Below, piece after piece: positions 45,619 through 63,635 of a stretch of DNA of 64,000 bases. Under the pieces are notes generated by a model that was not told the origin of the DNA, made no database searches, and saw only the letters and a list, made by a program, of their open reading frames with translations. The stretch covers positions 1 through 64,000 of IMG/VR virus record IMGVR_UViG_3300014502_000006, one strand, 5' to 3'. The translations under genes were made by a program, and so were the position numbers. Positions within the stretch are counted from its first letter, which is position 1. Every line of letters starts with the position of its first letter. The stretch comes from a virus.

Positions 45619-59804
<14,186 letters not shown>

Positions 59805-60406: not shown

Positions 60407-60478
60407 AGCCGAATAGTGGAATTGCACCACTTACATTCTCTTTACAAGGGAGACGTTCTACTGGTGAACTAATCCGGC
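60407..60478 (-). tRNA. tRNA-Thr(UGU), atypical
   Basis: GCCGGAT/ATTCGGC acceptor, GTTC/GAAC D-stem, CT-TGT-AA loop, AGTGG/CCACT T-stem with TGCAATT loop; no encoded CCA. Confidence 0.8.
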
Positions 60479-60908: not shown

Positions 60909-62390
60909 CTACACTGCAATGCAGTCGTACTTCGGGTCGCTCAAAGTTTCTACCATCATGTCGTATGGGGTCAAGCCAACACCCTTCAAGATTGCCTTGA
61001 AAACGCTAGGTGACTGACCGGAAGCCAACTGGACACCGTGCTCGTCCATTTCGGCATGGAATACATTTCTGTTGCGTGAGTCTACCTGCCAGTAGACCAT
61101 GTTAGGCAACTCGTAACCTGCACGAGCAAACTTCTCCTTCATCGCCTTGTTGAAAGTCTTTCCTCTGCTGTTTTCAGCAGAATCAATTTCCATATCGGAA
61201 ATGATGATGATAGACTTTGGCATATCCGCCTGTGGCACACTGTACTTTACAGCAGTATCCAGAACTAGCTCGAATACAGCCTGTAGGTTGGTGTTCGCCA
61301 CAATGGATGGCACGCACTTAATCTTGTCCTTAAGCGTCTTACCGGTCAAGGTAACGAAGCTAGGACTCTCGGAGAAGGTAATGAACTGGTTCTTGAACTG
61401 ACCGGTGTTGCGCTCAGCAAAGTAGACAGCCAAGCCAACAGAGGTGCAGATAGGGCGACCTTCCATAGAGCCGGAAGTATCAGCAACGATAAGTACATTG
61501 TCGCCATCTTCCACATAGTTAGGAAGTGCCTTCCACTGCTCTTCAAGAACTTCATCCCAACTGCTCATGTTGAACTTTCCACCATAGCCGTAGCCAAAAC
61601 CGAACCCCATCTTCTCGAAGAGGTCGTATGGATACAGGGTAGCAGAGTGAATAACTGCTTCACCCTTCTGTACCTTGGTGATGAATGAAGTGAAGCCCTC
61701 AGGGTCGTGGCGACCAAAAGCCTTGCGATAGTTCGCCATAGCCTTGCTAGGTACTGCGGAGTAGTTAATCTTATCCCATGCCTTTGCAGACATGAAAACT
61801 TCGGTCAACTTCAACCAGCCACGAAGCATAGCCAGATGCTTACGGTAATCGCGCTCGCTGTAGCCAATGTGCTTGGCGGTCAACTTACCAAGCTTGCGAG
61901 ATTCCGGGCTACTGGTATTAATGGACTTCAACCACTTAGCCATTAAAGAGATAGGCTGTCCATGCTCGTAAGCGTTAATATCCTTGCTCCACTGCTCGGC
62001 AATCAAACCCCAAGCAATGCCCTCGGCTTCTGTTCCGATGAACGAATAGATATCATCCCAACGTCCGAACTCAGGGATGTGTGCCATGTTTCGAATCATA
62101 GTGTCACGATGGGTACTGGCAAGCCAAGCCCACATGCGGCGTGCAACTTCACGCTCGCCCAAACCACCACGCACGTTACGCGCGTAGAAAGAAAGCTTGG
62201 TGGCAAGCAACGGATTTTCGTTGTATGCCTTCTCGAACATGGAGTCCACATCATGTGGGCGGGTGCGCAATGCGCCTACCACGCCGAACAAGTCCAGTAA
62301 AGGACTTCCGGTAGAGCCAATGGCATCCGCACCATTCTCAGTGCGAGTCCAACTGGAGTTAGTAGCAAGTCGCTGTGCAAAAGTATTCAT
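60909..62390 (-). CDS. DUF2828-family TROVE/Ro60-like helical protein with C-terminal vWA domain
   Basis: TENGA, LLDLFG, RNVRGGLGER, GRWDD, AKWL, VPSKAM, LYPYDL, QWKAL; MIDAS DTSGS, FITFS, NTNLQAVF, IISDME; AAGGAG RBS (ATG at 62390 or TTG at 62396). Confidence 0.85.
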   Translation of the reverse strand: MNTFAQRLATNSSWTRTENGADAIGSTGSPLLDLFGVVGALRTRPHDVDSMFEKAYNENPLLATKLSFYARNVRGGLGEREVARRMWAWLASTHRDTMIRNMAHIPEFGRWDDIYSFIGTEAEGIAWGLIAEQWSKDINAYEHGQPISLMAKWLKSINTSSPESRKLGKLTAKHIGYSERDYRKHLAMLRGWLKLTEVFMSAKAWDKINYSAVPSKAMANYRKAFGRHDPEGFTSFITKVQKGEAVIHSATLYPYDLFEKMGFGFGYGYGGKFNMSSWDEVLEEQWKALPNYVEDGDNVLIVADTSGSMEGRPICTSVGLAVYFAERNTGQFKNQFITFSESPSFVTLTGKTLKDKIKCVPSIVANTNLQAVFELVLDTAVKYSVPQADMPKSIIIISDMEIDSAENSRGKTFNKAMKEKFARAGYELPNMVYWQVDSRNRNVFHAEMDEHGVQLASGQSPSVFKAILKGVGLTPYDMMVETLSDPKYDCIAV

Positions 62391-62420: not shown

Positions 62421-62965
62421 AGACGCATATAAACGAGTCAAATTTGCGGTTTGATTGGTTGGGTTGCTGTTAGCGTCTTAATAATTTAAATTTGTCACGA
62501 CAGTTTTCCCACTTTTTGTTTTACAAGAGAAGCTGGAAACTCTTTTTTTCTGAGAGTAGGCTTTCGCCCCTCTTTCAGAATCATGAGTTGTGACGTGTTA
62601 GGTCTGTTTTGGGTTGCTGAGCCTGTCGTTAGTACTTTTTTTAATATATCACGGCGGTTCTTTTTTTCCCCGCCTACGGGGAGTAAAATCCCGTTGGGAT
62701 TTTATTGGATTCGAACCAATCAGTATTTTGGGTTGCTGCACCCGCCGTTCTTTATAATTCCTCAAGACCCTTATTTATCAATTAACAGTTGATTTATTTT
62801 GGTTGCTGTCCGGGTCTTCTTACTTTATAATTCATCACGACCCATTTAAGATTCTTCTGATAGAATTTTTTATTGGGTTGCTGTTAGGGTCGTATTTTAT
62901 AATTTCTCAAGGCTCTATTTTTTTCCAGTTTTCATATTGGTTTTTTGGGTTGCTGTATGAGCCTT
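62421..62965 (-). ncRNA. Tandem array of six structured RNA units (closing stem + CAGCAACC motif + variable hairpin cargo)
   Basis: Units 62909-62965, 62837-62893, 62764-62818, 62651-62748, 62497-62629, 62421-62478; closing stems differ in sequence but all pair; AT-rich linkers. Confidence 0.8.
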
Positions 62966-62980
62966 TCAAATCATATTACT

Positions 62981-63009
62981 ATTATACCACACTTTTCGAT
63001 TTTTGTCAA
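62981..63009 (-). promoter_or_regulatory. Consensus sigma70/sigmaA promoter with extended -10
   Basis: TTGACA (63009-63004), 17 nt spacer ending TGG, TATAAT (62986-62981); points into the RNA array. Confidence 0.85.
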
Positions 63010-63493: not shown

Positions 63494-63560
63494 AGACACA
63501 TTTTAGGGGTTGAACCTATCTGCCCGAAGGCATTTAACCTAGAGATTGCTGTATGTGTCT
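63494..63560 (-). ncRNA. Seventh, stand-alone CAGCAA RNA unit
   Basis: AGACAC-ATA-CAGCAA...GTGTCT enclosing a TGCC-TTCG-GGCA hairpin and a TAGG-TTCAACC-CCTA T-arm. Confidence 0.7.
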
Positions 63561-63564
63561 GAGG

Positions 63565-63635
63565 CAGGTAGTGAGAGACTTGAACTCCCATCAAGAGTTT
63601 TGGAGACAATTATCCTTCCATTAGACGAACCACCT
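63565..63635 (-). tRNA. tRNA-Trp(CCA) with degenerate anticodon stem
   Basis: AGGTGGT/ACTACCT acceptor, CT-CCA-AA loop, GGGAG-TTCAAGT-CTCTC T-arm; anticodon stem ATTGT/ACTCT has two mismatches. Confidence 0.75.

What the first reader, a model, noticed from the sequence alone, without database searches (positions are those of the whole stretch)
62421..62965. Array cargos mimic tRNA anticodon arms for different amino acids
Seen: 62777-62793 is ATCAA-CTGTTAA-TTGAT, a perfect 5-bp stem with the 7-nt tRNA-Asn loop CU-GUU-AA. 62438-62454 is TCAAA-CCGCAAA-TTTGA, a 5-bp stem with a 7-nt Cys-like loop (GCA). Weaker cases: ATTCT-ATCAGA-AGAAT (Leu CAG-like), CCAAT-ATGAAAA-CTGG (Phe GAA-like), and TCACAA-CTCATGA-TTCTGA plus CTTGTAA in the long unit (Met- and Thr-like). 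Established: defence systems such as PrrC, RloC, PARIS AriB and several TA toxins cleave anticodon loops. Inference: a panel of anticodon decoys or inhibitors of host anticodon nucleases, or ligands for synthetases, modification enzymes or T-boxes.
Basis: partly seen in the sequence, partly recalled or inferred. Interest (0 to 1): 0.85.

Follow-up and report, generated by a model that had tools for sequence, protein, structure and literature searches.

The report
Anticodon-arm mimics on phage Y-like RNAs
Two of the seven small RNAs that this peat-soil phage encodes beside its Ro60-like protein carry a hairpin built like a tRNA anticodon arm; related phages show this design far more often than chance, and it may bait proteins that read or cut tRNA anticodons, but that role is untested.

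Summary
The two strong hairpins are real, at the stated coordinates on the minus strand. Unit 3 has ATCAA-CUGUUAA-UUGAU. Its loop is identical to all 12 genuine tRNA-Asn loops in related phage loci. Unit 6 has UCAAA-CCGCAAA-UUUGA, which is Cys-like but has C where tRNAs have the near-invariant U33. The four weaker cases do not hold.

The units are not free-standing decoys. Each has a closing stem plus a UWACAGCAAYC handle, and they lie beside a DUF2828 gene whose model matches only Ro60/TROVE rings.

Across 237 non-redundant units from about 98 phage groups, 5-bp/7-nt CU-NNN-AA hairpins occur in 37 units, against 0.44 in shuffles. T-arm loops occur in 38, against 0.14. Of 58 anticodon-like loops, 43 equal a real tRNA's whole seven-base loop. 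Long units are circularly permuted tRNAs.

So mimicry of tRNA anticodon arms is supported. The decoy function is plausible but untested. Lys(UUU) is over-represented among the mimics, and a Bas63 homolog counters a defence system, though not a tRNA-cutting one. I found no support for T-box or synthetase-ligand ideas.

The scan found this RNP, and this same reading, before on other DNA (at least 74 genomes). I found it neither in Rfam nor in the papers I searched.

The parts
62981..63009 (-). Sigma-70-type promoter of the array (TTGACA, 17 nt, TGgTATAAT)
   Evidence: 12 of 12 consensus match with an extended -10. Contigs from RNA libraries start downstream of it or cover it.
62909..62965 (-). 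Unit 1: closing stem AAGGCUC/GAGCCUU, handle AUA-CAGCAACC, weak cargo hairpin with a UGAAAA loop
   Evidence: Matches model R1 at 34.4 bits although it was not in the seed. The cargo stem has only 3 bp, a mismatch and 1 bp.
62836..62894 (-). Unit 2: closing stem, handle UAA-CAGCAACC, cargo AUUCU-AUCAGA-AGAAU (6-nt loop)
   Evidence: R1 gives 37.0 bits and the unit was not in the seed. The ortholog in L001 has the 7-nt loop CUAUCAC.
62764..62818 (-). Unit 3: closing stem AAGACCC/GGGUCUU, handle GGA-CAGCAACC, cargo is an anticodon-arm mimic
   Evidence: R1 gives 58.1 bits, but this unit was a seed member.
62777..62793 (-). Anticodon-arm mimic of unit 3: AUCAA-CUGUUAA-UUGAU (Asn GUU type)
   Evidence: Read directly. 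The loop is identical to all 12 genuine tRNA-Asn(GUU) loops of the related loci. The same loop sits on different stems in L002, L011, L015, L094 and L186.
62651..62748 (-). Unit 4: handle plus a T-arm (AUUGG-UUCGAAU-CCAAU at 62704-62720), an 8-bp hairpin and a G+C-rich hairpin. YrlA-like tRNA-body mimic without an anticodon arm.
   Evidence: Fold. Weak Rfam tRNA-Sec match over the T-arm. Relatives with the same layout give sub-threshold YrlA matches.
62497..62629 (-). Unit 5: handle plus a 108-nt multi-hairpin cargo, conserved in L001. No anticodon-like hairpin.
62421..62478 (-). Unit 6: closing stem AGACGC/GCGUCU, handle UAA-CAGCAACC, cargo is a near anticodon-arm mimic
   Evidence: R1 gives 49.6 bits, but this unit was a seed member.
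62438..62454 (-). Hairpin of unit 6: UCAAA-CCGCAAA-UUUGA (Cys GCA type, but with C33)
   Evidence: Read directly. CUGCAAA occurs in 5 non-redundant relatives and in 7 of 11 real tRNA-Cys.
60909..62390 (-). DUF2828/DUF7788 gene (493 aa): Ro60-like ring plus a vWA domain with a MIDAS motif. Presumed protein partner of the units.
   Evidence: Pfam and PHROG matches. AlphaFold2 model with pLDDT 88.9. The top 12 PDB matches are all Ro60/TROVE. D304, S306, S308, T367 and D399 are invariant.
63494..63560 (-). Orphan seventh unit directly 3' of tRNA-Trp: handle AUA-CAGCAAUC, cargo with a cUUCGg hairpin and a T-arm-like UAGG-UUCAACC-CCUA
   Evidence: R1 gives 25.6 bits and the unit was not in the seed.
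63563..63635 (-). tRNA-Trp(CCA), a genuine phage tRNA next to the orphan unit
   Evidence: ARAGORN and Rfam.

Best explanation
The six array units, plus an orphan seventh, are small Y-RNA-like partner RNAs of the adjacent Ro60-like DUF2828 protein. Each has a constant docking handle and a variable body.

- Handle: a 6-8-bp closing stem of free sequence, then 3 nt (usually UWA), then CAGCAAYC left single-stranded.
- Body: built from tRNA parts.

In units 3 and 6 the body is an anticodon stem-loop mimic (Asn-GUU type and Cys-GCA type). In unit 4 and the orphan unit it is a T-arm or tRNA-body mimic. The array is transcribed from one strong promoter as the leader of the DUF2828 mRNA, and is presumably cut into single RNAs.

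The ring protein holds the handle. The displayed tRNA part engages proteins that recognise that part of a tRNA. My preferred use is counter-defence: the anticodon-arm mimics titrate, or tether to the ring, host factors that read or cut specific anticodon loops.

Shown here:
- the architecture;
- family-wide selection for true anticodon-loop and T-loop features;
- the Ro60-like fold;
- the gene-RNA linkage;
- presence of the array in RNA libraries.

Inferred: protein binding, processing, and any action on nucleases.

My odds: about 0.85 that these are protein-partnered tRNA-part mimics under selection, and about 0.3 that the specific role is as a decoy or inhibitor of anticodon nucleases.
For: Linkage and geometry:
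- 298 distinct units lie on the gene strand outside the gene, against 31 on the other strand.
- The closing stem ends exactly 3 nt before CAGCAA in 63 of 101 motif occurrences, against 3 of 32 on the opposite strand.
- Covariance model R1 finds 95 matches, all on the gene strand.
- The handle recurs with DUF2828 genes in Felix O1, Bas63, Listeria, Bacillus, Staphylococcus, Enterococcus and Mycobacterium phages.

Protein:
- The model matches Ro60/TROVE structures only (E 9e-9 to 3e-5, full length).
- The MIDAS residues are invariant.

Mimicry:
- Shuffle tests.
- Loop logo and 5-bp stems.
- 43 of 58 loops equal real tRNA loops.
- 17 of 23 units with a T-arm are called tRNA by ARAGORN after un-permuting. 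For L008, L086, L094 and L097 the called anticodon equals the mimic triplet: Phe GAA, Lys UUU, Ser UGA.
- Long units in relatives give YrlA matches of 25-45 bits.
- MAFFT plus RNAalifold recover both helices, with compensatory changes in all 5 pairs of the anticodon-like stem.

Expression: contigs from four metatranscriptome runs of four studies cover the array at 100% identity.

Counter-defence:
- Bas63 gp130 is a homolog (36% identity, E 5e-76, locus tag bas63_0130). It is reported to counter the Ppl defence (bioRxiv 10.1101/2024.10.10.617714).
- Lys(UUU) mimics are over-represented against real phage tRNAs (P=1.6e-6). Lys(UUU), Thr(UGU) and Asn(GUU) are the AriB targets (PMC12409363).
Against: - No binding, processing or functional data exist for any unit.
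- RNA-library contigs do not prove transcription or show RNA ends.
- Ppl, the only defence shown to be countered by a family member, is an ATPase-PHP protein thought to act on DNA, not an anticodon nuclease.
- Only 56 of 237 non-redundant units carry an anticodon-like hairpin, and 152 carry neither that nor a T-arm. So anticodon display is one option among several, not the family's purpose.
- Unit 6 lacks U33.
- Triplets within one phage are no more diverse than chance.
- Enrichment of U-rich triplets is partly expected in A+T-rich cargos, and related units are not fully independent.
- No RNA-repair gene and no identifiable nuclease-related gene was found in the 75-kb record, which is 53% complete.
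Confidence: 0.45

Rival explanations
1. Classic Y-RNA tether. The tRNA-like bodies recruit a tRNA-handling enzyme to the Ro-like ring for tRNA or RNA surveillance during infection, rather than blocking a defence nuclease. Candidates are RNase P/Z, the CCA-adding enzyme, modification enzymes, RtcB-type ligase or PNPase.
For: - Ro60-Y RNA precedent: YrlA is a substrate of TruB, DusA and RNase P (PMC4201824).
- Thermus phage Ro60 with its Yrl RNAs assembles with host PNPase (PMC12135203).
- The gene sits in or beside tRNA arrays in many phages.
- An RtcB ligase gene lies 1.3 kb from the gene in a Listeria phage.
- Many units carry T-arms or whole permuted tRNAs rather than anticodon arms.
Against: - Short units display only an anticodon stem-loop. 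That is a poor handle for elbow- or acceptor-binding enzymes.
- The strong bias towards Lys(UUU), with weaker trends for Asn(GUU) and Cys(GCA), is not predicted by a general tether.
- No repair genes were found in this record.
Confidence: 0.3
2. Structural relics. The units descend from tRNAs, and the 7-nt U-turn loops persist only because they are stable or contact the DUF2828 protein itself. They have no tRNA-directed partner.
For: - Permuted-tRNA ancestry is evident.
- Unit 2 (6-nt loop) and unit 6 (C33) show decay of the signature within this very array.
Against: - The signature C32, U33, A37, A38 is kept on unrelated stems across very distant phages, with compensatory stem changes.
- 43 of 58 loops equal a real tRNA loop in all seven bases.
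- No loop-to-handle complementarity beyond permutation controls.
Confidence: 0.12
3. Cis-acting leader. The array acts only as a structured 5' UTR that controls DUF2828 translation or stability. This includes T-box-like sensing or titration of synthetases.
For: The array lies between the promoter and the ribosome-binding site of the gene.
Against: - Units occur downstream of the gene, inside tRNA arrays and far from it in other phages.
- Here an orphan unit lies upstream of the array promoter.
- In L001 a homing-endonuclease gene separates the array from the gene.
- No Rfam T-box or riboswitch match.
- No acceptor end is present for a synthetase.
Confidence: 0.05

Closest known systems
Ro60 (Rsr/TROVE2) with Y RNAs, especially the tRNA-mimicking YrlA of bacteria and mycobacteriophages (Rfam RF02553; Chen et al. 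2014, PMC4201824), and Thermus phage phiLo Ro60 with Yrl1/Yrl2 (PMC12135203)
   Same: - A ring protein with a vWA domain, encoded next to small RNAs on the same strand.
- The RNA 5' and 3' ends pair into a stem next to a conserved single-stranded protein-binding motif.
- The variable body mimics tRNA (T-arm, closed acceptor-like stem, D-arm).
- The long relatives give sub-threshold YrlA matches.
   Different: - The protein is Pfam DUF2828/DUF7788, with no TROVE match by sequence.
- The handle is UWACAGCAAYC, not GNCGAAN0-1G or CGAA.
- The RNAs come in arrays of up to 9 units.
- Many units are only 55-65 nt and display just an anticodon stem-loop. YrlA lacks one, because its Ro-binding stem takes that place.
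Class I RNAs of dictyostelid amoebae (Rfam RF01414; Kjellin et al. 2021, PMC7919456)
   Same: About 60 nt long, with a 6-bp terminal stem of free sequence. The motif CCUUACAGCAA directly follows the 5' arm and is unstructured, and the rest is variable. Unit 1 gives a weak RF01414 match (18.6 bits).
   Different: - The score is far below the gathering threshold (41.5 bits).
- They are eukaryotic RNAs, suggested to be Pol III transcripts, with a DUSE promoter.
- Their known direct binder is the RRM protein Rnp1A.
- No anticodon-like cargo is reported.
- A link to a DUF2828 protein in amoebae was not testable here.
Phage-encoded tRNAs that evade or neutralise tRNA-cutting defences (T5 tRNA-Lys, tRNA-Thr and tRNA-Asn against PARIS AriB; PMC11464382, PMC12409363)
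   Same: - Both are phage RNAs carrying Lys(UUU)- or Asn(GUU)-type anticodon loops.
- Both are encoded in or beside tRNA clusters.
- Both plausibly relate to tRNA-directed immunity.
   Different: The T5 RNAs are complete, chargeable tRNAs that replace cleaved host tRNAs. The units here have no acceptor end and cannot decode, so any effect would be by titration or tethering.

Membership tests
Ro60/TROVE ring proteins | Ring-shaped HEAT-repeat domain followed by a vWA domain | tested here: met
   AlphaFold2 model with pLDDT 88.9 and pTM 0.89. Foldseek's top 12 PDB matches are all Ro60/TROVE over about 530-560 columns, TM 0.42-0.58, E 9e-9 to 3e-5.
Ro60/TROVE ring proteins | MIDAS motif (DxSxS ... 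T ... D) in the vWA domain | tested here: met
   D304, S306, S308, T367 and D399 are invariant in 11 and in 33 homologs.
Ro60/TROVE ring proteins | Sequence-level match to the TROVE domain or to solved Ro60 chains | tested here: not met
   Pfam gives only DUF2828 and DUF7788. phmmer against PDB sequences finds nothing below E=0.5.
Y RNA / YrlA (RF02553) | Terminal stem formed by the 5' and 3' ends, encoded near the Ro-type gene and on the same strand | tested here: met
Y RNA / YrlA (RF02553) | Ro-binding motif GNCGAAN0-1G / CGAA near the 5' end | tested here: not met
   The conserved motif is UWA-CAGCAAYC in all units.
Y RNA / YrlA (RF02553) | Score at or above the Rfam gathering threshold (69 bits) | tested here: not met
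   No YrlA match in the window at E<=10. Relatives reach 25-45 bits.
Y RNA / YrlA (RF02553) | Physical binding to the ring protein | not testable with these tools
   No RNA-protein assay or RNA-protein complex predictor is available here.
tRNA anticodon arm (as the thing mimicked) | 5-bp stem closed by a 7-nt loop | tested here: met
   Met by units 3 and 6. Not met by unit 2 (6-nt loop), unit 1 or unit 5.
tRNA anticodon arm (as the thing mimicked) | Y32, U33, purine 37 (usually A37 and A38) | tested here: inconclusive
   Unit 3 (CUGUUAA) meets all. Unit 6 (CCGCAAA) fails U33. Across the family: C32 in 49 of 58, A37 in 53 of 58, A38 in 42 of 58.
Genuine tRNA | Cloverleaf with an acceptor end that can be charged | tested here: not met
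   ARAGORN and Rfam call none of the units a tRNA. Units 3 and 6 have no T-arm, D-arm or acceptor end.
Dictyostelid Class I RNA (RF01414) | About 60 nt, 6-bp terminal stem, 11-nt motif CCUUACAGCAA after the 5' arm | tested here: inconclusive
   The architecture and the ACAGCAA core are shared. The Rfam score is 18.6 bits against a gathering threshold of 41.5.

The most novel reading that the evidence does not exclude
The CAGCAA-handle RNAs form a modular display system. A Ro60-like ring carries exchangeable copies of tRNA anticodon arms, preferentially of tRNAs that defence nucleases cut (Lys UUU, Asn GUU). In this way it disarms or senses anticodon-directed immunity. The same handle-protein pair would be ancient enough to survive as the unexplained Class I RNAs of social amoebae.
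Probability: 0.2. Interest if true: 0.85.

Novelty: new variant of a known kind. Interest (0 to 1): 0.6.

Why it matters
- DUF2828 proteins occur in at least 709 deposited phage genomes, including the laboratory phages Felix O1, Bas63, P100-like and Twort-like phages. They have no assigned function.
- Recognising that they travel with handle-bearing RNAs that display tRNA parts gives the family a testable molecular role.
- It extends the Ro60/Y-RNA principle to a second handle type.
- It offers a new candidate strategy in the conflict over tRNA-cutting immunity. That conflict is so far known to be met by replacement tRNAs, not by non-decoding mimics.
- Bas63 on E. coli K-12 carries both parts and already has a knockout phenotype for the protein, so the question can be tested directly.

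Tried and rejected
1. Loop-to-handle pairing. CUGUUA of unit 3 is complementary to UAACAG in the handles of units 2 and 6. Over 58 loops, complementarity to the unit's own handle does not exceed handles permuted among units (P=0.93). Rejected as a general principle.
2. 'Panel' test. Duplicate triplets within a phage: 5 observed, 2.3 expected. My grouping merged strains, so the result is inconclusive.
3. RNA-library contigs. They cover the array, but depth cannot rank genes. The uncovered stretch 62751-62801 in three runs, and contig ends near 62802-62809 and 62742-62750 (one with adapter letters), cannot be read as processing sites. No DNA run was laid beside them.
4. Sequence search of the protein against PDB chains: nothing.
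5. Rfam at gathering thresholds: no family on the array. At E<=10 there were only weak matches.
6. Full-text search for DUF2828: no functional paper.
7. RNA-repair or nuclease genes in the 75-kb record: none found among 20 ORFs scanned against PHROGs. The record is about half complete.
8. Identity of DDB_G0281243, the protein of unknown function pulled down with a Class I RNA: not resolvable from the papers held.

Full report
**What is there.** All features lie on the minus strand. A consensus sigma-70 promoter (63009..62981, TTGACA-17-TGgTATAAT) is followed by six units and then by the ribosome-binding site and start of a 493-aa gene (62390..60909). Each unit has four parts:
- a 6-8-bp closing stem whose sequence differs from unit to unit;
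- exactly three bases;
- the motif CAGCAACC, usually followed by an A-rich run (CAAAA in four of the six);
- a variable cargo before the 3' arm.

The unit coordinates are:

| Unit | Coordinates |
|---|---|
| 1 | 62965..62909 |
| 2 | 62894..62836 |
| 3 | 62818..62764 |
| 4 | 62748..62651 |
| 5 | 62629..62497 |
| 6 | 62478..62421 |
| orphan | 63560..63494, directly after tRNA-Trp |

No other credible unit exists in the 75,146-bp virus record. That record comes from peat or permafrost metagenomes. It encodes terminase, portal, collagen-like fibres, holin, endolysin and PhoH.

**Checking the observation.**
- The reverse complement of 62777-62793 reads ATCAA-CTGTTAA-TTGAT, as stated.
- The reverse complement of 62438-62454 reads TCAAA-CCGCAAA-TTTGA, as stated.
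- The first is a canonical anticodon-arm shape: 5 bp, 7-nt loop, C32 U33 GUU A37 A38.
- The second has the shape, but C at position 33. Among 375 genuine tRNAs of the related loci, 360 have U there.

The weaker cases fail:
- Unit 2 has a 6-nt loop. Its ortholog in the closest relative, L001 (79% protein identity), has the 7-nt loop CUAUCAC on the same stem.
- Unit 1 pairs only 3 bp, a mismatch and 1 bp.
- The two motifs in the long unit 5 are not hairpin loops in the minimum-energy fold, and the first is not conserved in L001.

DUF2828 homologs occur in 709 deposited phage records. I fetched about 215 loci from viral contigs and named phages.

A simple detector was used: a closing stem ending 3 nt before CAGC[ACU]A[ACU]. 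Results:
- It finds 298 distinct units on the gene strand outside the gene, against 31 on the other strand.
- The 3-nt spacing is a sharp optimum: 63 of 101 motif occurrences at d=3, against 6 at d=0 and 12 at d=8. On the opposite strand it is 3 of 32.

Among 237 units no more than 80% alike, cargo hairpins with stems of 5 bp or more behave as follows:

| Feature | Observed | Shuffles |
|---|---|---|
| 7-nt loops | 150 | 47 +/- 7, max 66 |
| Units with a T-loop (UUCRANN) | 38 | 0.14 |
| Units with another YU-NNN-R loop | 46 | 3.2 +/- 1.8, max 8 |
| Units with CU-NNN-AA | 37 | 0.44 +/- 0.72, max 4 |

The 43 pseudo-units on the opposite strand show 0, 2 and 0 for the last three rows.

The 58 anticodon-like loops were collected with stems of 4 bp or more:
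- C32 in 49 and A38 in 42. U33 (all 58) and a purine at position 37 (A in 53) were required by the search pattern.
- U or G at position 34 in 49, as real tRNAs do.
- A 5-bp stem in 32.
- They start 6-15 nt after the handle.
- 43 of 58 are identical in all seven bases to the anticodon loop of a genuine tRNA called by ARAGORN in the same loci. CUGUUAA equals all 12 tRNA-Asn loops.

Further structural support:
- A sequence-only MAFFT alignment of 26 short units, folded by RNAalifold, recovers both helices. All five pairs of the inner stem show compensatory changes.
- That set was chosen for having the hairpin, so the unbiased evidence is the shuffle test.
- A covariance model built from these units finds 95 matches, all on the gene strand. 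These include window units 1, 2 and the orphan, which were not in the seed.

**What the units are.** Long units in relatives contain, in order: an anticodon-like hairpin, 4-6 nt, a T-arm, a closed acceptor-like hairpin and a D-arm.
- When cut in the acceptor loop and rejoined at the handle, 17 of 23 such units are called tRNA by ARAGORN.
- For L008, L086, L094 and L097 the anticodon called is the mimic triplet: Phe GAA, Lys UUU, Ser UGA.
- These units give sub-threshold matches to Rfam YrlA, at 25-45 bits against a gathering score of 69.

So the cargos are tRNA-derived. The family ranges from whole circularly permuted tRNAs to isolated T-arms (window unit 4 and the orphan) and isolated anticodon arms (units 3 and 6). 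The handle is inserted where the D-arm meets the anticodon arm.

**The protein.**
- Pfam gives DUF2828 plus DUF7788. PHROGs gives 'RNA-binding protein'.
- The AlphaFold2 model has pLDDT 88.9.
- Its twelve best PDB matches are all Ro60/TROVE proteins, aligned over their full length. They include Xenopus and human Ro60, Deinococcus Rsr and Thermus phage phiLo Ro60.
- The vWA MIDAS residues are invariant.
- Sequence searches do not see this relationship.

The gene sits in or beside phage tRNA clusters in Bacillus, Enterococcus, Campylobacter, Listeria and Felix O1-like phages. The handle accompanies the gene, with small variants such as CAGCAAAU, CAGCAAUU and CAGCCAAU.

**Comparison with what is known.** Ro60 binds Y RNAs through a terminal stem and a conserved motif. 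Bacterial and mycobacteriophage YrlA RNAs carry a tRNA-like domain and lie next to the Ro60 gene on the same strand (PMC4201824). Thermus phage Ro60 binds two Yrl RNAs through a CGAA motif and assembles with host PNPase (PMC12135203).

This system works like that, but differs in four ways:
- the protein family;
- the handle (UWACAGCAAYC, not GNCGAAN0-1G);
- the array organisation;
- the presence of isolated anticodon arms. YrlA lacks one, because its Ro-binding stem takes that position.

The handle also closely resembles the dictyostelid Class I RNAs: about 60 nt, a 6-bp terminal stem, then CCUUACAGCAA, then a variable rest (PMC7919456). Unit 1 gives a weak RF01414 match. I could not test whether amoebae pair these RNAs with a DUF2828 protein. 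One protein pulled down with a Class I RNA, DDB_G0281243, has no known function (bioRxiv 10.1101/2020.04.05.026054).

I found no paper on DUF2828 function and no Rfam family for the units.

**Function.** Two points bear on the decoy idea.

First, the mimic repertoire is not a sample of phage tRNAs:

| Triplet | Mimic loops (of 58) | Real tRNAs (of 375) | P |
|---|---|---|---|
| Lys UUU | 10 | 5 | 1.6e-6 |
| Asn GUU | 6 | 12 | 0.02 |
| Met/Ile CAU | 1 | 43 | 0.018 |

Pro UGG and Trp CCA mimics are absent. Lys(UUU), Thr(UGU) and Asn(GUU) are the tRNAs cut by the PARIS nuclease AriB (PMC12409363). This phage also has a genuine but unusual tRNA-Thr(UGU).

Second, a preprint reports that Bas63 gp130, 'structurally similar to Ro60' and upstream of tRNA genes, counters the Ppl defence system (10.1101/2024.10.10.617714).
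- I confirmed that bas63_0130 is a homolog of the window protein (36% identity, E 5e-76).
- Handle-bearing units lie unannotated between Bas63's tRNA genes.
- However, Ppl is not known to cut tRNA.

Points against a decoy role:
- Most units have no anticodon-like hairpin.
- The within-phage 'panel' is not statistically distinguishable from chance.
- Related units are not independent.
- A+T-rich cargos favour U-rich triplets.

A classic Y-RNA tether role, recruiting tRNA-handling enzymes, fits the T-arm and whole-tRNA units at least as well.

**Expression.** Eight metatranscriptome runs hold the array. Contigs from four of them, from four studies, cover it at 100% identity. This shows presence in RNA libraries. 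It shows neither RNA ends nor expression levels.

**Verdict.**
- The mimicry reading is supported at family level.
- The decoy mechanism remains a plausible, untested minority hypothesis within a firmer frame: Y-like partner RNAs of a Ro60-like phage protein that display tRNA parts.
- The scan has reported the same RNP (207 notes in at least 170 genomes) and the same anticodon-mimic reading (79 notes in at least 74 genomes) on other DNA. My tests here were run independently and agree with those reports.

Noticed in passing
window 60407-60478 (-): A tRNA-Thr(UGU) with loop CUUGUAA. Rfam finds it at 51.7 bits but ARAGORN misses it, probably because its T-loop is UGCAAUU rather than UUCRANN. Thr(UGU) is one of the AriB targets (PMC12409363).
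   Followed up: partly
L224:2273-2339 and L224:2440-2497 (Escherichia phage JohannRWettstein = Bas63, MZ501086): Unannotated CAGCAA-handle units lie between the annotated tRNA genes, downstream of bas63_0130. That gene is the Ro60-like protein reported to counter the Ppl defence. This makes Bas63 a laboratory model for the system.
   Followed up: partly
L001:786-1510: In the closest relative, a GIY-YIG homing-endonuclease-like ORF is inserted between the RNA array and the DUF2828 gene. That array has four units and lacks the counterparts of window units 4 and 6.
   Followed up: no
record 64105-64189 (L217:206-290, -), just beyond the window: Near-threshold match to the Rfam wcaG RNA motif (39 bits against a gathering score of 42). 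It lies in a promoter-rich non-coding stretch with tRNA-Ala(GGC) and further T-arm-like hairpins.
   Followed up: no
window 62742-62750 and 62802-62809: RNA-library contigs of three runs end at these places: the start of unit 4 and the CAGCAA motif of unit 3. One end carries adapter letters. Unit 3's body is uncovered in three of the four runs. This may reflect processing, reverse-transcription stops or assembly, and remains unexplained.
   Followed up: no
short units of many loci, e.g. L017:2338-2398, L053:2073-2136, L088:4100-4159: The anticodon-like hairpin is usually flanked by a second, outer helix of 3-7 bp across an internal loop. The arm on display is therefore longer than a bare anticodon stem-loop.
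   Followed up: no
window 62909-62965 (-) and the whole family: The architecture and the ACAGCAA core are those of the dictyostelid Class I RNAs (RF01414, weak 18.6-bit match). A protein of unknown function, DDB_G0281243, was pulled down with a Class I RNA. Whether it is Ro60-like is unknown.
   Followed up: partly
window 45619-59487 (-): A 4622-aa ORF with long 9-, 24-, 27- and 90-nt periodic repeats (collagen-like Gly-X-Y). It lies beside several collagen-like tail-fibre genes.
   Followed up: no
L013:1809-2013 and L062:5129-5199: Sub-threshold Rfam matches in related phage loci near the DUF2828 gene: a group I intron (46.6 bits against 50) and a twister-P1 ribozyme (34 bits against 67).
   Followed up: no
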